Positions 5,308 to 12,996 of a DNA stretch of 32,000 nucleotides are shown piece after piece. This DNA comes from Candidatus Omnitrophota bacterium. GTDB taxonomy: Bacteria; Omnitrophota; Gorgyraeia; Zapsychrales; JANLHA01. Below the pieces are notes generated by a model, which was given only the letters and a program-made list of their open reading frames with translations, was not told the origin of the DNA and ran no database searches. The stretch's first letter is position 1; every line of letters begins with the position of its first letter. The DNA is taken from the NCBI GenBank assembly GCA_963662715.1, contig OY759724.1, positions 1,680,001 to 1,712,000 on the forward strand, read 5' to 3'. The position numbers and the translations under genes were made by a program.

Positions 5308-6306
5308 ATGAACGAATTCCCTTCCGACAATTCTGCCGGCGTCATTTCAACAGACCAGCTGATCGGTCTCTACCGGGAGATGGCCCGTATCAGGCTTGTT
5401 GAGTTGAAAGTTGAAGAGCTGTATCATCTTGATGAAATGAAAACTCCTGTCCATTTAGCCCTTGGCCAGGAAGCCGTGTCGTCCGGGGTCTGCGCTCATC
5501 TCGGAACGGATGATCGTATATTCAGCAATCACCGTAGTCATGCCCATTATTTGGCTAAGGGGGGAGACCTCAAAGCCATGATTGCCGAATTTTACTGTAA
5601 GGAAACCGGCTGCGCCAAAGGCCGGGGCGGATCGATGCATTTGATTGATACGGCTGTCGGTCATTTCGGCTCTTCGGCCATTGTGGGGGGCGGGATCCCG
5701 CACGCCGTGGGAGCTGCTTTGGCTTTCAAGATGCAGAAAAAGCCGTGTGTGGCCGTGTCCTTTTTCGGAGATGCTGCCAGTGAACAAGGGGTGTTCTTTG
5801 AAAGTATGAGTTTGGCTGTTTTAAAACGGCTGCCGGTTATTTTTGTTTGTGAAAATAATGCCTATTCTGTCTGCTCCCATATCTCTGTCCGGCAGCCCAA
5901 CCCTGACGTGGTCATGCGCCCGCGGGCTTTTGATATGCCGGCAGCACAGGTTGACGGCATGGATGTTTCAGCTGTTTTTGCCAAGGCTAAAGAAGCTGTG
6001 GAATTCTCCCGGCAGGGGCATGGTCCGTATTTGCTGGAGTGCCGTGTGCAGCGCTGGCGGGGGCATGCGGGCGCCGGTGATCCTTTAAGGGAAAAGTACC
6101 GCGCCCCGCAGGACTTAACCCCGGACTGGATGCGGGATCCTTTGGCCGACTGCGAAAAAATTTTAATGGCCGATAGACAGGTTAACGGCGAAGCACTCGA
6201 AGGTATCAAAGCCGAATTGAAAAAAGAAATCGATCAGGCTTTTCAGTACGCCCAGGAAAGCCCTTTGCCTGACAAAGGTGATCTGGAAAAGTTCTTGTTT
6301 AAATAA
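5308..6306 (+). CDS. Thiamine-diphosphate-dependent dehydrogenase E1 component, alpha subunit (orphan, no E2/E3 nearby)
   Basis: 332 aa. E1_dh-type sequence with the TPP-binding motif GDAASEQGVFFESMSLAVLKRLPVIFVCENN and the GRGGSMH motif. Starts 9 nt after the UXS stop. Confidence 0.85.
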   Translation: MNEFPSDNSAGVISTDQLIGLYREMARIRLVELKVEELYHLDEMKTPVHLALGQEAVSSGVCAHLGTDDRIFSNHRSHAHYLAKGGDLKAMIAEFYCKETGCAKGRGGSMHLIDTAVGHFGSSAIVGGGIPHAVGAALAFKMQKKPCVAVSFFGDAASEQGVFFESMSLAVLKRLPVIFVCENNAYSVCSHISVRQPNPDVVMRPRAFDMPAAQVDGMDVSAVFAKAKEAVEFSRQGHGPYLLECRVQRWRGHAGAGDPLREKYRAPQDLTPDWMRDPLADCEKILMADRQVNGEALEGIKAELKKEIDQAFQYAQESPLPDKGDLEKFLFK

Positions 6307-6331
6307 TATATAACCACAGGGAAAGATTTTT

Positions 6332-7372
6332 ATGCCTTGGACAAAGTTGCAGATAGAACGCGAAGAGCCGGCTTTTGATGAAAATTTGGGACAGGATATC
6401 CGCAAACTCAATTTTGGAGAAGCCCTGCGGGAGGCCTTAGACCAGGCTTTGGAACGGGATCCCAGGGTTTATGCGATGGGGCAGGGCATAAACGATCCCG
6501 GAGGTATTTTCGGGACGACCGATGGCTTACGGGAGAAATATGGGAACGAACGGGTCTTTGACACTCCCTTAGCGGAAGAAGCCACCATTGGCATGGCCAT
6601 TGGTTCAGCTATGGCGGGATTGCGTCCGGTGTCTATCCATAACCGGCCGGACTTCCTTATGATGGCGATGGATCAGATTGTCAATGCCGCTGCTAAGTGG
6701 TGCTACATGTTTGCCGGGCAGGTTCCTATCCCTCTTGTCATCCGGGCGTGTATCGGACGGGGATGGGGGTCGGCGGCACAGCATTCCCAGTCCCTGCACG
6801 GTTTGTTTACGCATGTCCCCGGGCTGAAAGTTGTTCTGCCCAGCACAGCCTATGACGCCAAGGGCCTGTTCATCACAAGTATCGCTGACGAGAATCCGGT
6901 TATCTTTATTGAGCACCGCTGGCTTTTCAAGCATCAAGGCTCTGTTCCCGAGCATGTTTATTCGATCCCTTTCGGTCAGGCCACAGTAAAACGCCCGGGA
7001 AAAGATATTACGGTGTTAGCCATTTCTCACATGGTTATTGAATCTCTTCGGGCGGCCGAGGAACTGGAAAAGAAAGGGATAAGTCTGGAGGTTATTGATC
7101 CCCGGTCATTACACCCTTTTGATGAGGAGACATTGCTGCAGTCACTTTCTAAAACCGGCAAGCTGATTGTCGCGGATGTGGACTGGAAGACCGGCGGATT
7201 TGCCGCGGAGGTCGTAGCTACTGTTGCTGAAAAGGGGTTTCATGATTTGAAAAAACCGCCGGTCCGCGTATGTCTCCCGGATGTCCCGACCCCTGCGAGT
7301 TACGTCCTGGAAGAAGCTTTTTACAGAGGGGTTCCGGATATTGTGCAAGCGGCGGAAAAATTAATGCGTTAA
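6332..7372 (+). CDS. Thiamine-diphosphate-dependent dehydrogenase E1 component, beta subunit (transketolase-like Pyr plus C-terminal domains)
   Basis: 346 aa. RVFDTPLAEEATIGMAIGSAMAGLRP, HSQSLHGLFTHVPGLKVVLPSTAYDAKGL and a C-terminal ISLEVIDPRSLHPFD segment are typical of 2-oxoacid dehydrogenase E1 beta. Confidence 0.85.
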   Translation: MPWTKLQIEREEPAFDENLGQDIRKLNFGEALREALDQALERDPRVYAMGQGINDPGGIFGTTDGLREKYGNERVFDTPLAEEATIGMAIGSAMAGLRPVSIHNRPDFLMMAMDQIVNAAAKWCYMFAGQVPIPLVIRACIGRGWGSAAQHSQSLHGLFTHVPGLKVVLPSTAYDAKGLFITSIADENPVIFIEHRWLFKHQGSVPEHVYSIPFGQATVKRPGKDITVLAISHMVIESLRAAEELEKKGISLEVIDPRSLHPFDEETLLQSLSKTGKLIVADVDWKTGGFAAEVVATVAEKGFHDLKKPPVRVCLPDVPTPASYVLEEAFYRGVPDIVQAAEKLMR

Positions 7373-7434
7373 AGCGTCCGGGATTTCCCGGAGGCAGAAG
7401 GGTTTAAATTAATCAACAGTGAGGTGGGGGTAAA

Positions 7435-11006: not shown

Positions 11007-11016
11007 TCCGACCGTC

Positions 11017-11772
11017 ATGTCCGAATCATTGAATCGCGTGAGACATTTGGAAAAAATCGATGCCGTTATCTTGGCCGGCGGCTTAGGGACGAGATTGCGG
11101 TCCGTTGTCGGGCCTTCACAGAAGACAATGGCTTCGATCGGAGAGCGGCCTTTCTTAGACCTACTTTTAGAGTATTTAAAAAAACAGCTCTTTTCACGTA
11201 TTATCTTGTGCACGGGGTATCAGGCCGATGCGATTGAGCGTTATTACCGTAAGTCTTCCCCGGGATTGGATATTGTCTTTTCCCGCGAAGAGAGCCCGCT
11301 GGGAACTGGGGGCGCCGTGAAAAAGGCGGAGGCTCTTATCCGCAGCGATCCTTTTTTTGTCCTGAACGGAGATTCCTGGTGCGAAGTGGATTATAGGGCC
11401 TTGCTGGCTTTTCATCTGAAGGAGCAGGCCGTGGCCACTTTAACGTTGTCGCGGGTAAAAGACAGCAGGGATTTCGGCCGGGTTCTTCTTGGTAACGACG
11501 CGAGGGTTGTCCGCTTTCAGGAAAAATCCGGTCCGGCTGAACCTGAGGCCGCAAGAGCTTCTGCTCCGGTGTATGTGAGTGCCGGGGTTTATTGTTTTGA
11601 TAAAAACATATTTTCCCTGATGCCCCGGCAGGAATGTTTCTCCATAGAACGGGACCTGTTCCCTCATGTTCTGCAGCAGCGCGTCTACGGGTTTACGGAT
11701 GCCGGAGATTTTATGGATATTGGTACCCCGGAAAGATATGAAGAGGCGAAAAGAAAATTAACTGATAATTGA
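11017..11772 (+). CDS. Sugar-1-phosphate nucleotidyltransferase (HddC/GDP-heptose-type guanylyltransferase-like)
   Basis: AVILAGGLGTRLRSV pyrophosphorylase motif. ATG 11017 was chosen because the track ORF start at 10951 overlaps the kinase gene with non-homologous residues. About 251 aa. Confidence 0.8.
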   Translation: MSESLNRVRHLEKIDAVILAGGLGTRLRSVVGPSQKTMASIGERPFLDLLLEYLKKQLFSRIILCTGYQADAIERYYRKSSPGLDIVFSREESPLGTGGAVKKAEALIRSDPFFVLNGDSWCEVDYRALLAFHLKEQAVATLTLSRVKDSRDFGRVLLGNDARVVRFQEKSGPAEPEAARASAPVYVSAGVYCFDKNIFSLMPRQECFSIERDLFPHVLQQRVYGFTDAGDFMDIGTPERYEEAKRKLTDN

Positions 11773-11775
11773 AAT

Positions 11776-12996
11776 TTGCCGTTTAATCGTTTCGGTTTTT
11801 GCATAAGAAAGGCAGGGAGTATTTTGGACCCACAAAAAGAACAGAGCATTGAAGTTAAAACCCAGTATAAAGTCCCGTTCGGCACAGTCTCTATCACGGA
11901 AGAGGCCAAGGCTCTCATTCATGAGGCCCTGGAAACAAAATTTGTCACCCGGGGAAAATATGTGGCGGAATTCGAGAACCTGTTTGCCAAATTATTTAAA
12001 AATAAATTTGCCGTTGCGGTATCCAGCGGCACGGACGCGGACGCCATTTCTTTAGCGGCCTTATATGATTTCGGGGCGGAGCGGGGGGATGAAATTATTG
12101 TCCCGGCGCTGTCTTTTGTCGCGACCGGGAATTCTGTTTTGCAGGCGGGGTTCAAGCCTGTTTTTGTTGATATCAAAAAGGAAACATTGAATATTGATGT
12201 GGATAAGATTGAAGCTGCCATAACAGAACGGACCCGTGCTATCATGCCCGTTCACCTCATGGGCAAGCCGGCGGATATGGATCCGATCATGGCTATAGCG
12301 GAAAAACATCGCCTCTTTGTGATTGAAGACGCCGCCGAAGCCCACGGGGCAGAGTACCGGGGGCGACTGATCGGCACGATTGGGCAAATGGCGGCTTTCA
12401 GCCTTTATGCCGCCCATATCGTGACCTCGATTGAAGGCGGGATGATCGTCACAAATGATGAAAGAATCGCCGAAGCCCTGCGGTCTCTCCGGAATCACGG
12501 TATTGTCAATAAATTTGAATTCCGGCGTATCGGGTTTTCCGCTAAAATGAATGAAATCGAGGCTGCTGTGGGTATCGGGAATATTAAAATGTTTGATAAT
12601 ATCCTGGATACCAGAAGGCGTAATCTGCTTTACCTTATCGAGCATTTCAGGAAATTTGAACCTTATTTTATAACTCTGAAAGAAGAGGAAGGCGAAAAGA
12701 TCGGCCCGCACGCTTTTTCGATTATTCTGCGGGAGGGATGCAACTTTACTAAGGATGAGATGGTTGCTTTTCTTGACGGGGAAGGCGTGGATTCCCGTAA
12801 TTTGTTTTATTCGATGCCAACGCAATGTCCGAGTTATGCGTTTCTCGGTTATAAGCTGGGGGACTTCCCGGAAGCCGAGTATTGCGGCGAACATGGATTC
12901 CATATCGGAATTCATCAGGATATCGGGTTGCCGCAGCTGGATTACACCGTGGAAGCGATTGAGAAATTTTTGAATTCCAAAGGCATTTTTTGCTGA
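11776..12996 (+). CDS. DegT/DnrJ/EryC1-family PLP/PMP enzyme with His replacing the catalytic Lys; predicted sugar-nucleotide 3-dehydratase (ColD/E1-like)
   Basis: Family motifs AVSSGTDA, DAAEAHGA and FSLYAAHIVTSIEGGMIVTND, with His (CAT 12415-12417) at the Schiff-base Lys position. The start is uncertain: TTG 11776 per the ORF track, or in-frame TTG 11824 preceded by AGGGAG. Confidence 0.8.
   Translation: MPFNRFGFCIRKAGSILDPQKEQSIEVKTQYKVPFGTVSITEEAKALIHEALETKFVTRGKYVAEFENLFAKLFKNKFAVAVSSGTDADAISLAALYDFGAERGDEIIVPALSFVATGNSVLQAGFKPVFVDIKKETLNIDVDKIEAAITERTRAIMPVHLMGKPADMDPIMAIAEKHRLFVIEDAAEAHGAEYRGRLIGTIGQMAAFSLYAAHIVTSIEGGMIVTNDERIAEALRSLRNHGIVNKFEFRRIGFSAKMNEIEAAVGIGNIKMFDNILDTRRRNLLYLIEHFRKFEPYFITLKEEEGEKIGPHAFSIILREGCNFTKDEMVAFLDGEGVDSRNLFYSMPTQCPSYAFLGYKLGDFPEAEYCGEHGFHIGIHQDIGLPQLDYTVEAIEKFLNSKGIFC

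What the first reader, a model, noticed from the sequence alone, without database searches (positions are those of the whole stretch)
5308..12996. Orphan TPP-dependent E1 alpha/beta pair wired into a sugar-nucleotide tailoring operon: candidate new branched-chain deoxy-sugar pathway
The E1 alpha gene (intact TPP motif GDAASEQG...VCENN) and the E1 beta gene start 9 nt after the UDP-xylose synthase gene and end 62 nt before an SDR gene, all on one strand. No lipoyl-acyltransferase (E2) or dihydrolipoamide dehydrogenase (E3) gene occurs anywhere in the 32 kb.

Directly downstream come an extended SDR, a B12-binding radical SAM protein, a GHMP sugar kinase, a sugar-1-P nucleotidyltransferase, a His-variant DegT protein (3-dehydratase signature) and glycosyltransferases.

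There is an established precedent. TPP enzymes can add a two-carbon acyl-anion unit to 4-keto sugar nucleotides. YerE does this in yersiniose A biosynthesis, acting after an E1-type 3-dehydrase and before a ketoreductase. To my recollection, E1 alpha/beta-like pairs have also been proposed for such branches in orthosomycin sugars.

This cassette reproduces that logic: 3-deoxygenation, TPP-dependent C-C bond formation, then SDR reduction. It does so with a heterodimeric E1-type TPP enzyme that is not homologous to YerE, and it adds a class-B radical SAM step.

I infer that the locus makes a C-branched, possibly C-methylated, deoxy heptose or hexose nucleotide sugar for a surface glycan. I cannot match the combination to any characterised pathway.
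Basis: partly seen in the sequence, partly recalled or inferred. Interest (0 to 1): 0.8.

Follow-up and report, generated by a model that had tools for sequence, protein, structure and literature searches.

The report
E2-less E1 pair in heptose-tailoring operon
A thiamine-dependent "pyruvate dehydrogenase E1" gene pair with no partner E2/E3 sits inside a conserved operon that makes and modifies GDP-heptose, and most likely adds a two-carbon branch to a 3-deoxy-4-keto-heptose destined for a surface glycan, a sugar type not yet described.

Summary
All domains, gaps (9 nt, 62 nt), the TPP motif and the His-for-Lys DegT are as described, and the 32 kb holds no E2 or E3.

Two corrections matter. 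The SDR after E1-beta is a close homologue (390 bits) of PDB 6vo6, which I recall as C. jejuni Cj1427, the GDP-heptose C4-dehydrogenase. It therefore starts the pathway rather than reducing the branch. The kinase and nucleotidyltransferase are HddA/HddC-like, so the scaffold is GDP-heptose.

The upstream UXS is a genuine UDP-xylose synthase. Its link to the E1 pair is seen only in Omnitrophota relatives.

The core set is E1-alpha/beta, Cj1427-like SDR, His-DegT and HddA/HddC-like genes, usually with a B12 radical SAM gene. It recurs in Omnitrophota, Alphaproteobacteria, Nitrospirota and Cyanobacteria.

The window's E1-alpha falls in a clade with 191/200 bootstrap support. No locus in that clade has an adjacent E2 (0/32, against 9/23 outside). 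The clade includes a Streptomyces pair next to an EryCIII-type glycosyltransferase.

E1-like pairs are already proposed for C-4 acetyl branches in avilamycin, paulomycin and everninomicin. This is therefore a new variant of a known kind: the same chemistry inferred on GDP-heptose in diderm glycan loci. No biochemistry exists, and the radical SAM step is unassigned.

The parts
1702..3012 (+). UDP-glucose 6-dehydrogenase. Part of the neighbouring UDP-sugar module, probably not of the heptose pathway.
   Evidence: All three UDPG_MGDP_dh domains. TuaD-type UGDH model scores 544 bits. Conserved upstream of the cassette only in Omnitrophota relatives.
3027..4328 (+). Second NDP-sugar 6-dehydrogenase, closer to the UDP-ManNAc/GlcNAc dehydrogenase type.
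   Evidence: UDPG_MGDP_dh domains. NDP-sugDHase model scores 431 bits; the best equivalog hits are UDP-ManNAc dehydrogenase models, below cut-off.
4345..5298 (+). Genuine UDP-glucuronate decarboxylase (UDP-xylose synthase). It ends 9 nt before E1-alpha.
   Evidence: 369 bits, full length, to human UXS1 (2b69/4gll), with the [10 protein letters not shown] motif. Adjacent to E1a in L001, L053-L057 but absent from L058, L059, L062.
5308..6306 (+). E1-alpha-like ThDP subunit (PP domain) with no E2/E3 partner. Proposed donor-activating half of a sugar C-branching carboligase.
   Evidence: PF00676, 1.9e-62. PDH_E1_alph_y scores 306 bits against a cut-off of 394. GDAASEQG...ENN motif. Clade with 191/200 bootstrap support and 0/32 loci with an adjacent E2.
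6332..7372 (+). E1-beta-like subunit (Pyr domain plus transketolase C-terminal domain).
   Evidence: PF02779 and PF02780. PRK09212 scores 319.8 against a cut-off of 321. 264 bits to G. stearothermophilus E1-beta 3duf_B. Always paired with E1a in related loci.
7435..8364 (+). Cj1427-type SDR. [quoted passage not shown]
   Evidence: phmmer 5.9e-116, 390 bits over residues 2-308, to PDB 6vo6/6vo8. That 6vo6 is Cj1427 is from my own knowledge. The function of Cj1427 is from PMC10680097. Orthologues at 51-83% identity in 14 of 32 clade loci.
8412..8440 (+). Promoter-like site (TTGACC-17-TATAAT, 11 of 12) in the 102-nt gap before the radical SAM gene. Possible internal promoter.
   Evidence: This is a consensus match only; 35 such sites were found in the region against 22 expected by chance.
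8467..9981 (+). B12-binding radical SAM protein of unassigned function, possibly C-methylation or a radical rearrangement of the heptose.
   Evidence: PF02310 and PF04055. Best NCBIfam hits are HpnJ (174 bits, cut-off 578) and BchE (143 bits). Best PDB hit is AprD4, 6fd2, 69 bits. Orthologues at 47-85% identity in 10 of 32 clade loci. Orthologues also occur without E1ab in L061 and L063.
10011..11006 (+). HddA-like GHMP kinase. Proposed heptose-7-phosphate anomeric kinase.
   Evidence: GHMP_kinases_N/C. HddA model at 2.1e-46, 159 bits, below the 600-bit cut-off. Best PDB hits are heptose kinases WcbL 4usk, 3k85 and 4n3o.
11017..11772 (+). HddC/ManC-like sugar-1-phosphate nucleotidyltransferase. 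Proposed to form GDP-heptose. The mechanical ORF starts at 10951; the likely start is 11017.
   Evidence: PF00483. HddC model scores 150 bits against a cut-off of 300; man1P guanylyltransferase model scores 161 bits. Homologues are called at 237-250 aa.
11776..12996 (+). ColD-type, PMP-dependent DegT with His in place of the PLP lysine. Proposed GDP-4-keto-heptose 3-dehydratase.
   Evidence: PF01041, 2.5e-102. Best PDB hits are GDP-perosamine synthase 3bn1 (230 bits) and ColD 2gms/3gr9 (183-187 bits); the alignment shows H at the K position. His is present in all 12 cassette-linked homologues and in L053-L060.
12990..14150 (+). GT4 glycosyltransferase that overlaps the DegT stop by 7 nt. Candidate transferase for the modified heptose.
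   Evidence: Glycos_transf_1 and Glyco_transf_4. Overlap. Conserved next to the cassette in L053 and L054.
28945..29589 (+). GmhB-like HAD phosphatase (heptose 1,7-bisphosphate 7-phosphatase). It supplies the missing phosphatase step but lies 16 kb away among LPS-core genes.
   Evidence: PRK08942 scores 162 bits against a cut-off of 178. HAD domains.

Best explanation
The cassette at 5308-14150 is a GDP-heptose tailoring operon.

**Inferred route**
1. Heptose 7-phosphate is phosphorylated at C1 by the HddA-like kinase.
2. It is dephosphorylated at C7. A GmhB-like phosphatase lies elsewhere in the window.
3. [quoted passage not shown] The Cj1427-like SDR oxidises C4.
5. The His-variant, ColD-type DegT uses PMP and glutamate to remove the 3-hydroxyl, giving GDP-3-deoxy-4-keto-heptose.
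6. The E2-less E1-alpha/beta heterotetramer decarboxylates pyruvate (or another 2-oxo acid) to hydroxyethyl-ThDP. It adds this carbanion to the C4 ketone instead of to lipoamide, giving a 4-C-acetyl tertiary alcohol.
7. The B12 radical SAM protein modifies the sugar further.
8. The GT4 transfers the product to a surface glycan.

**What is shown and what is inferred**
- Shown by sequence: the domain identities, the homology to solved structures, the conserved linkage and the separate E1 clade.
- Inferred: every chemical step, the order of steps, the donor acid, the nucleotide (GDP) and the radical SAM role.

**Possible cofactor coupling (inference).** The dehydratase makes alpha-ketoglutarate from glutamate. 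Cj1427-type enzymes use alpha-ketoglutarate to reoxidise their bound NADH.
For: **4-keto generator.** The SDR matches 6vo6/6vo8 at 390 bits over its full length. Cj1427 oxidises GDP-heptose at C4 with alpha-ketoglutarate. A PLP/glutamate C3-dehydratase then converts that product to GDP-3-deoxy-4-keto-heptose in vitro (PMC10680097).

**Heptose scaffold.**
- The kinase's best structural relatives are heptose kinases.
- HddA, HddC and GmhB models are the top or near-top NCBIfam hits.
- A GmhA-like SIS gene sits in the cyanobacterial cassette L009.
- An HldE-like gene precedes the E1 pair in L052.

**3-dehydratase.** The DegT has His at the lysine position, as do the homologues in 12 other loci at only 27-35% identity.

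**Conserved linkage.** Gene order is conserved at 55-74% E1a identity. The core set recurs in Alphaproteobacteria (L008, L010, L013, L023, L059, L062), Nitrospira (L021), Cyanobacteria (L009) and others.

**Separate E1 clade.**
- The clade has 191/200 bootstrap support.
- An adjacent E2 is found in 0/32 loci inside the clade and 9/23 outside (p = 1.3e-4).
- A DegT is found in 19/32 inside and 0/23 outside.
- The clade contains a Streptomyces pair beside an EryCIII-like glycosyltransferase and a ketoreductase.

**ThDP swap.** In L060 the same cassette carries a split transketolase instead of E1ab. The slot is therefore filled by another ThDP two-carbon-transfer enzyme.

**Precedent.** AviB1/B2, Plm8/Plm9 and EvdU5/EvdS3 are proposed or genetically implicated in C-4 acetyl branching from pyruvate.

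**No C4 reductase.** The window cassette has none, so the 4-ketone needs another fate.
Against: - No biochemical data exist for any member of this clade.
- Both histidines used by classical E1s for reductive acylation of lipoamide are retained: RGH in alpha and QHS in beta. The sequence therefore does not exclude normal E1 chemistry.
- E1-beta scores 319.8 bits against the generic PDH E1-beta model, just under the 321-bit cut-off.
- The rest of the 3.36-Mb genome could not be searched for E2/E3 (one search found no record).
- HddA-, HddC- and GmhB-like proteins all score below NCBIfam cut-offs, and no GmhA is in the window.
- That 6vo6 is Cj1427 rests on my memory; the paper is not held.
- ThDP enzymes generally prefer aldehyde acceptors, and the transketolase swap in L060 fits an aldehyde acceptor equally well.
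Confidence: 0.55

Rival explanations
1. The E1 pair is a carboligase, but its acceptor is an aldehyde rather than the C4 ketone. For example, the radical SAM protein might dehydrate the heptose 6,7-diol to an aldehyde. The chain would then be extended, DXS/transketolase-like, to a linear deoxy-nonose, and C4 would be handled by another enzyme.
For: The radical SAM protein's best solved relative is the diol dehydratase AprD4. A split transketolase, whose natural acceptors are aldehydes, replaces E1ab in L060 and accompanies it in L058. Several loci carry an extra SDR that could reduce C4.
Against: The window and L053, L054 and L057 have no extra SDR, so C4 would stay a ketone. E1ab occurs with His-DegT but without the radical SAM orthologue in L008, L013, L019 and L025-L027. 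The AprD4 match is weak at 69 bits.
Confidence: 0.13
2. This is an eurekanate-like pentose route. The E1 pair branches the UDP-4-keto-pentose intermediate released by the adjacent UXS, as proposed for EvdS6 plus EvdU5/EvdS3. The heptose genes would be a separate pathway in the same operon.
For: UGDH-UGDH-UXS-E1a-E1b are contiguous with gaps of 9-25 nt, and this order is conserved in L001 and L053-L057. The everninomicin proposal uses exactly this logic (PMC10338323).
Against: The UXS is a very close homologue of human UXS1 (369 bits), a classical UDP-xylose producer. The E1 clade occurs with the heptose/His-DegT set and without UGDH/UXS in at least 12 loci from other phyla. Inside the clade, UXS is seen in only 6 of 32 loci, against 19 of 32 for DegT.
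Confidence: 0.1
3. The pair is an ordinary catabolic E1 (pyruvate, acetoin or branched-chain), with E2 and E3 encoded elsewhere. Its position in the glycan operon would be incidental.
For: Best family hits are PDH E1 models, with beta within 1.2 bits of its cut-off. The catalytic histidines are retained. JGI labels relatives as acetoin oxidoreductase. The rest of the genome was not searchable.
Against: The position is conserved across phyla with the same sugar genes. The clade is separate from E2-linked E1s with 191/200 support, and 0/32 clade loci have an adjacent E2. E1-alpha scores 88 bits below the equivalog cut-off. Clade-specific substitutions exist, including an invariant Arg195.
Confidence: 0.05
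4. The pair acts only as a 2-oxo-acid decarboxylase. It would make an aldehyde that becomes a non-carbohydrate substituent of the glycan, with no C-C bond to the sugar.
For: E1-type enzymes release aldehydes as a side reaction. The locus holds acyl- and deacetylase-type decorating genes downstream. Relatives carry carbamoyltransferase and GDSL genes.
Against: Nothing in the conserved core would use such an aldehyde. The tight and exclusive association is with a 4-keto generator and a 3-dehydratase. The transketolase replacement in L060 is a transferase, not a decarboxylase.
Confidence: 0.07

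Closest known systems
AviB1/AviB2 (avilamycin), Plm8/Plm9 (paulomycin) and EvdU5/EvdS3 (everninomicin): PDH-E1-like pairs proposed to add a pyruvate-derived acetyl branch at C-4 of 4-keto NDP-sugars
   Same: A two-gene E1-alpha/E1-beta architecture with no E2/E3, embedded among NDP-sugar genes next to the enzyme that makes the 4-keto sugar. The window's E1a clusters with a Streptomyces pair flanked by an EryCIII-type glycosyltransferase and a ketoreductase.
   Different: Those pairs act on dTDP/UDP hexoses or a pentose in actinomycete antibiotic clusters. 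Here the scaffold is a heptose (probably GDP-linked) in surface-glycan loci of diderm bacteria, and the pair is coupled to a ColD-type 3-dehydratase and often a B12 radical SAM protein. The literature states that Gram-negative LPS pathways use YerE instead (PMC4753412). Direct sequence comparison with the named proteins was not possible.
YerE/YerF (yersiniose A) and ErwE/MyGE: ALS-type ThDP flavoenzymes that branch CDP-3,6-dideoxy-4-keto-glucose
   Same: The same pathway logic: a 4-keto sugar, then 3-deoxygenation by a His-variant DegT-family enzyme, then ThDP carboligation at C4 to give a tertiary alcohol (PMC9306805).
   Different: A different ThDP family (single-chain, FAD-containing, ALS-like) against a heterodimeric E1 type. 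The substrate is a CDP-hexose rather than a heptose. That pathway uses an Fe-S E1 dehydrase plus E3 reductase, whereas this locus has a ColD-type enzyme without a reductase.
Campylobacter jejuni capsular GDP-heptose modification pathway (HddA, GmhB, HddC, Cj1427, HS:5 C3-dehydratase)
   Same: The kinase and nucleotidyltransferase types, the Cj1427-type C4 dehydrogenase (390 bits to its structure) and a PLP/glutamate 3-dehydratase. The combination gives GDP-3-deoxy-4-keto-heptose in vitro (PMC10680097).
   Different: C. jejuni finishes with epimerases and C4 reductases and has no ThDP or radical SAM step. In this locus those finishing enzymes are absent, and an E1 pair and a B12 radical SAM protein are present instead.
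Pyruvate, acetoin and branched-chain 2-oxoacid dehydrogenase E1 (heterotetrameric alpha2-beta2)
   Same: Fold families, the ThDP motif, the cofactor-activating Glu in beta and both catalytic histidines.
   Different: No E2 or E3 in 32 kb or in any of 32 related loci. The clade is separate. Scores are below the equivalog cut-offs. The genomic partners are sugar-nucleotide enzymes.

Membership tests
Sugar C-branching E1-like ThDP pair (AviB1/AviB2 type) | Separate E1-alpha (PF00676) and E1-beta (PF02779 + PF02780) genes, adjacent and co-oriented | tested here: met
   the gap is 25 nt.
Sugar C-branching E1-like ThDP pair (AviB1/AviB2 type) | No cognate E2 or E3; located within a nucleotide-sugar pathway that produces a 4-keto sugar | tested here: met
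   No E2 or E3 in the window. The Cj1427-like C4 dehydrogenase is directly downstream. 0/32 clade loci have an adjacent E2.
Sugar C-branching E1-like ThDP pair (AviB1/AviB2 type) | Sequence clustering with the genetically implicated members (AviB1, Plm8, EvdU5) | tested here: inconclusive
   Those sequences were not retrievable. Indirect support: the clade includes a Streptomyces pair (L006, 46% identity) next to an EryCIII-like glycosyltransferase and a ketoreductase.
Sugar C-branching E1-like ThDP pair (AviB1/AviB2 type) | Pyruvate-dependent formation of a C-4 acetyl branch on an NDP-4-keto sugar | not testable with these tools
   Requires an enzyme assay.
2-oxoacid dehydrogenase complex E1 (PDH, acetoin, BCKDH) | Score above the curated equivalog or subfamily cut-offs | tested here: not met
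   Alpha scores 306.4 against 393.85. Beta scores 319.8 against 321, which is borderline.
2-oxoacid dehydrogenase complex E1 (PDH, acetoin, BCKDH) | Genomic association with lipoyl-bearing E2 (and E3) | tested here: not met
   None in the 32 kb and none in 32 related loci, against 9/23 outside the clade. The rest of the genome was not examined.
2-oxoacid dehydrogenase complex E1 (PDH, acetoin, BCKDH) | Catalytic histidines for reductive acylation (alpha His263 and beta His128, human/Gst numbering) | tested here: met
   Both are retained. This feature does not discriminate between the two families.
Cj1427-type GDP-heptose C4-dehydrogenase | Full-length close homology to the solved enzyme, with a Rossmann GGAGYIGS motif and a YxxxK motif | tested here: met
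   390 bits over residues 2-308 to 6vo6; the motifs are read. That the PDB entry is Cj1427 is from memory.
ColD-type PMP-dependent NDP-4-keto-sugar 3-dehydratase | DegT fold with His replacing the PLP-binding Lys, and no Fe-S/E3 reductase partner | tested here: met
   His is present at that position. ColD 2gms/3gr9 align over residues 45-394, whereas the Fe-S enzyme 3bcx aligns best only over 32-242. No reductase was found in the window. The Fe-S cysteine motif was not examined.
[quoted passage not shown] | All four enzymes present and scoring as equivalogs | tested here: inconclusive
   HddA-like scores 159 against 600, HddC-like 150 against 300 and GmhB-like 162 against 178; all are best or near-best hits but below cut-off. 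The kinase's best structures are heptose kinases. No GmhA is in the window. A SIS gene is present in the related cassette L009.
Class B (cobalamin-dependent) radical SAM methyltransferase | N-terminal B12-binding domain, a CxxxCxxC radical SAM core, and membership of a characterised methylase family | tested here: inconclusive
   The domains and motif are present. The best families are HpnJ and BchE (not methylases) and AprD4 (a dehydratase), all far below cut-off.

The most novel reading that the evidence does not exclude
A widespread, uncharacterised pathway in Omnitrophota, Alphaproteobacteria, Nitrospirota, Cyanobacteria and others builds a new class of nine- or ten-carbon, C-4-branched 3-deoxy-heptoses for surface glycans. 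It would use an E2-less E1 (or split transketolase) carboligase. It would also use an HpnJ/BchE-like B12 radical SAM enzyme that either C-methylates the sugar or closes a carbocycle between the branch and the heptose side chain, giving a bicyclic sugar in the manner of bradyrhizose.
Probability: 0.12. Interest if true: 0.85.

Novelty: new variant of a known kind. Interest (0 to 1): 0.6.

Why it matters
**Where this chemistry is thought to occur.** ThDP-dependent branching of sugars by E1-like pairs is so far only a genetic proposal, confined to actinomycete antibiotics. LPS-type branched sugars are thought to rely on YerE-type enzymes. This locus suggests that the E1-type solution is widely used in the envelope glycans of uncultured and environmental diderm bacteria. 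It would act on a heptose scaffold for which no branched natural product is known.

**What it would provide.**
- A defined, testable substrate set. GDP-heptose, Cj1427 and the C3-dehydratase are already available reagents.
- A new family of carboligases that form tertiary alcohols on ketone acceptors, which are of interest for biocatalysis.
- A handle on an abundant, unannotated B12 radical SAM family.

**Annotation.** The result flags thousands of database entries named "pyruvate/acetoin dehydrogenase E1" that are probably mis-annotated.

Tried and rejected
1. **Erwiniose idea rejected.** I considered heptose plus a branch plus a radical SAM methyl giving 3,6,8-trideoxy-4-C-hydroxyethyl-octose. 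PMC9306805 shows erwiniose comes from CDP-3,6-dideoxy-4-keto-glucose plus a C4 keto acid through the YerE-type ErwE.
2. **Bradyrhizose lead unsupported.**
   - Its genes are unknown and a dTDP-glucose 4,6-dehydratase is implicated (PMC4743980).
   - A homologue search with the alphaproteobacterial radical SAM protein returned Ferrovibrio, Arenibaculum and unnamed MAGs, with no Bradyrhizobium among the top 120.
   - The cassette's 3-dehydratase also does not fit a 3-hydroxylated sugar.
3. **No loss of catalytic residues.** I looked for loss of the lipoamide-acylation histidines in E1-alpha and E1-beta as a signature of changed function. Both are retained.
4. **Source contig not retrievable.** The exact-sequence look-up found no record, so E2/E3 elsewhere in the genome could not be checked.
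5. **Papers not held.** PMC7509852 (Cj1427 structure) and PMC544256 (AviB1/B2 genetics) are not held. A search for the code 6VO6 gave only chance hits.
6. **Bootstrap rerun.** The first bootstrap script timed out. I reran it with a faster distance routine.
7. **Review silent on this type.** The 2025 review of ThDP enzymes that form tertiary alcohols mentions neither E1-type pairs nor heptoses.
8. **No published case found.** Literature searches that combined heptose, ThDP, E1 and radical SAM terms found no description of this cassette.

Full report
**1. Observation**

The window carries one long same-strand gene array. Pfam and NCBIfam scans give the following map:

| Coordinates | Assignment |
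|---|---|
| 13-1662 | LptD |
| 1702-3012 and 3027-4328 | two NDP-sugar 6-dehydrogenases |
| 4345-5298 | extended SDR (shown in section 2 to be a UDP-xylose synthase) |
| 5308-6306 | E1-alpha (PF00676, 1.9e-62) |
| 6332-7372 | E1-beta (Transket_pyr + Transketolase_C) |
| 7435-8364 | second extended SDR |
| 8467-9981 | B12-binding radical SAM protein |
| 10011-11006 | GHMP kinase |
| 11017-11772 | NTP_transferase |
| 11776-12996 | DegT |
| 12990-14150 | GT4 |
| 14245-15087 | GT2 |
| 15088-16593 | TPR + polysaccharide deacetylase |

- The TPP motif GDAASEQG...VCENN is present.
- The gaps of 9 nt and 62 nt are correct.
- The DegT reads FSLYAAHIVTSIEGG where GDP-perosamine synthase reads FSFFGNKIITTGEGG, so His replaces the PLP lysine.
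- No E2, E3 or lipoyl domain is present in any scanned ORF, and tblastn with a real E2 finds nothing in the window.

**2. What the neighbours are**

The SDR after E1-beta is the key correction.
- It matches PDB 6vo6/6vo8 at 5.9e-116 (390 bits, residues 2-308).
- From my own knowledge, that entry is Campylobacter jejuni Cj1427. The deposit title repeats the misspelt genome annotation. I could not confirm the code in a held paper.
- A PLP/glutamate C3-dehydratase then converts that product in vitro to GDP-3-deoxy-4-keto-heptose, m/z 616.08 (PMC10680097).

The other neighbours point to the same scaffold.
- The kinase's best solved relatives are heptose kinases: WcbL 4usk, 3k85 and 4n3o.
- Its best NCBIfam model is HddA, and the transferase hits HddC and ManC models. 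All score below cut-off.
- A GmhB-like phosphatase lies at 28945-29589.
- No GmhA is in the window.
- The DegT's best structures are the GDP-sugar enzymes perosamine synthase and ColD.

The scaffold is therefore most probably GDP-heptose. The SDR starts the chemistry rather than ending it.

The SDR upstream of the E1 pair is a genuine UDP-xylose synthase, at 369 bits to human UXS1.

**3. Conservation**

A genome-collection scan with E1-alpha returned 52 loci. I called ORFs in each locus and compared them with the window proteins.

*Close relatives.* Exact-sequence look-ups of E1-alpha relatives at 62-74% identity show the same order, LptD-UGDH-UGDH-UXS-E1a-E1b-SDR-rSAM-GHMP-NTP-DegT (L053, L054, L057).

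*More distant relatives.*
- At 66% identity, an extra SDR is inserted (L056).
- At 55% identity, UGDH and UXS are gone but E1a-E1b-SDR-GHMP-SDR-NTP-DegT remains (L058).

*Other phyla.* The set recurs in:
- alphaproteobacterial MAGs (L008, L010, L013, L023);
- Ferrovibrio (L059) and L062, beside Wzy_C or Wzm/Wzt genes;
- Nitrospira (L021);
- a cyanobacterium (L009, with a GmhA-like SIS gene);
- others.

*Identity levels.* Across phyla the Cj1427-like SDR stays 51-63% identical and the kinase 47-62%. The DegTs are only 27-35% identical, yet every one has His at the lysine column.

*Variants.*
- In L052 an HldE-like gene precedes the E1 pair.
- In L060 the cassette is intact, but a split transketolase replaces the E1 pair.
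- Radical SAM orthologues also occur without the E1 pair (L061, L063).

**4. Is it an ordinary E1?**

An NJ tree was built from 57 E1-alpha sequences over 305 trimmed columns.
- The window falls in a clade of 33 sequences that holds every glycan-context pair. Support is 191 of 200 bootstraps.
- An E2 (lipoyl + E3_binding + 2-oxoacid_dh) lies beside the pair in 0 of 32 loci inside the clade and 9 of 23 outside (p = 1.3e-4).
- A DegT lies nearby in 19 of 32 loci inside and 0 of 23 outside.
- The clade includes a Streptomyces pair flanked by an EryCIII-type glycosyltransferase and a ketoreductase. That is the setting of the antibiotic sugar-branching pairs.
- E1-alpha scores 88 bits below the PDH equivalog cut-off. 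E1-beta is borderline.
- Five positions are clade-specific, among them an invariant Arg195.

Against a changed function, both catalytic histidines are retained. The rest of the genome could not be checked for E2/E3.

**5. Mechanism proposed**

The proposed route is:
1. Heptose-7-P is converted by the HddA-like kinase to the 1,7-bisphosphate.
2. A GmhB-like phosphatase gives the 1-phosphate.
3. The HddC-like transferase gives GDP-heptose.
4. The Cj1427-like SDR gives the 4-keto sugar.
5. The ColD-type DegT, with PMP and glutamate, gives the 3-deoxy-4-keto sugar.
6. E1ab with pyruvate, ThDP and loss of CO2 gives the 4-C-acetyl tertiary alcohol.
7. A radical SAM step follows.
8. The GT4 transfers the product.

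The homologies and the linkage are shown. Every reaction is inferred.

The inference for the ThDP step rests on four points:
- the exclusive companionship with a 4-keto generator and a 3-dehydratase;
- the lack of any C4 reductase in the window cassette;
- the interchange with another ThDP two-carbon transferase in L060;
- the published proposals for AviB1/B2, Plm8/Plm9 and EvdU5/EvdS3.

A cofactor loop is plausible: the dehydratase's alpha-ketoglutarate would feed the dehydrogenase.

The radical SAM role is open.
- Its nearest families are HpnJ, BchE and AprD4, all weak matches.
- It can occur without the E1 pair.
- It may therefore act on the heptose itself.

**6. Rivals**
- The acceptor could be an aldehyde, giving chain extension.
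- The acceptor could be the UXS intermediate, as in the eurekanate proposal. This is disfavoured because the UXS link is confined to one lineage.
- The pair could be a normal E1 with distant E2/E3.
- The pair could be only a decarboxylase.

Each rival is scored in its own section.

**7. Comparison and novelty**

The closest known systems are:
- the actinomycete E1-like branching pairs, which have the same enzyme type;
- YerE-type pathways, which have the same logic with a different ThDP family;
- the C. jejuni GDP-heptose pathway, which has the same front end.

The literature contrasts Gram-positive E1-like pairs with the single YerE of Gram-negative LPS (PMC4753412). A 2025 review of ThDP enzymes that form tertiary alcohols mentions neither E1-type pairs nor heptoses. 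My searches found no description of this cassette.

I therefore rate it a new variant of a known kind: known enzyme classes in a combination and on a scaffold not yet described, and widely distributed. Interest is 0.6. The chemistry is predictable rather than astonishing. But the pathway is conserved and abundant and can be tested directly with existing reagents, and it probably yields an undescribed sugar.

Noticed in passing
L060:5726-7425 (minus strand), beside L060:7795-13255: A cassette otherwise matching the window's (His-DegT, Cj1427-like SDR at 62% identity, radical SAM at 48%, NTP, GHMP) carries a split transketolase (Transketolase_N 259 aa + Transket_pyr/C 307 aa) where the E1-alpha/beta pair normally sits. 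One ThDP enzyme type appears to have displaced the other.
   Followed up: partly
L061:8001-9503 and L063:8001-10516: Orthologues of the B12 radical SAM protein occur without the E1 pair, the His-DegT or the Cj1427-like SDR nearby. In L063 the orthologue sits next to the GHMP kinase, two further B12 radical SAM genes and a GT9 heptosyltransferase. Its role may therefore be independent of the ThDP step.
   Followed up: partly
window 8412-8440 (+): A near-consensus sigma-70-like site (TTGACC-17-TATAAT, 11 of 12) lies in the 102-nt gap between the Cj1427-like SDR and the radical SAM gene. It is the largest gap inside the cassette and may hold an internal promoter.
   Followed up: no
window 14245-18787: Downstream lie a weak GT2, a TPR-fused polysaccharide deacetylase (Polysacc_deac_1) and, after a 700-nt gap, a PMT_2/ArnT-like membrane glycosyltransferase. 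Together with the upstream UGDH/UXS genes and a second, Lys-type DegT at 26714-27853, this loosely resembles an Ara4N-style lipid-linked sugar modification set.
   Followed up: no
window 24511-30717: An LPS-core-like block: ManC-type mannose-1-P guanylyltransferase, a GT9 heptosyltransferase-II-like gene (134.3 bits against a cut-off of 134.6), DegT, GT2, a GmhB-like phosphatase and an MGDG-synthase-like glycosyltransferase.
   Followed up: partly
L059:13235-13816, L062:11253-11840, L061:7377-7880: In alphaproteobacterial versions a NUDIX hydrolase gene is consistently attached to the cassette. The window has none. Its role is unknown; it might hydrolyse a nucleotide sugar or act in proofreading.
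   Followed up: no
L056:11791-14027 and L057:17717-19546: In other Omnitrophota relatives the GT4 position after the DegT is taken by a carbamoyltransferase (Carbam_trans_N/C), with or without a GDSL lipase or esterase. The modified sugar may be further O-carbamoylated or acylated in some lineages.
   Followed up: no
window 5308-6306, residues P47, G86, R195, W250, G255: These five positions are conserved in at least 94% of the glycan-context E1-alpha clade; Pro47, Arg195 and Gly255 are invariant. The same residue occurs in at most 15% of E2-linked or other E1-alphas. Pro47 sits two residues before an active-site-region His (PVH).
   Followed up: partly
window 20412-23396 (minus strand): A 479-aa MORN_2 repeat protein and a 513-aa ORF with no Pfam match interrupt the otherwise plus-strand glycan region. 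A voltage-gated-type ion channel gene (Ion_trans) lies at 18881-19783.
   Followed up: no
L007:1897-5570 and L058:20658-20972: Some E1 pairs of the same clade sit next to NeuB-family (nonulosonic acid synthase) genes and SAM methyltransferases. The clade may serve more than one sugar scaffold.
   Followed up: no
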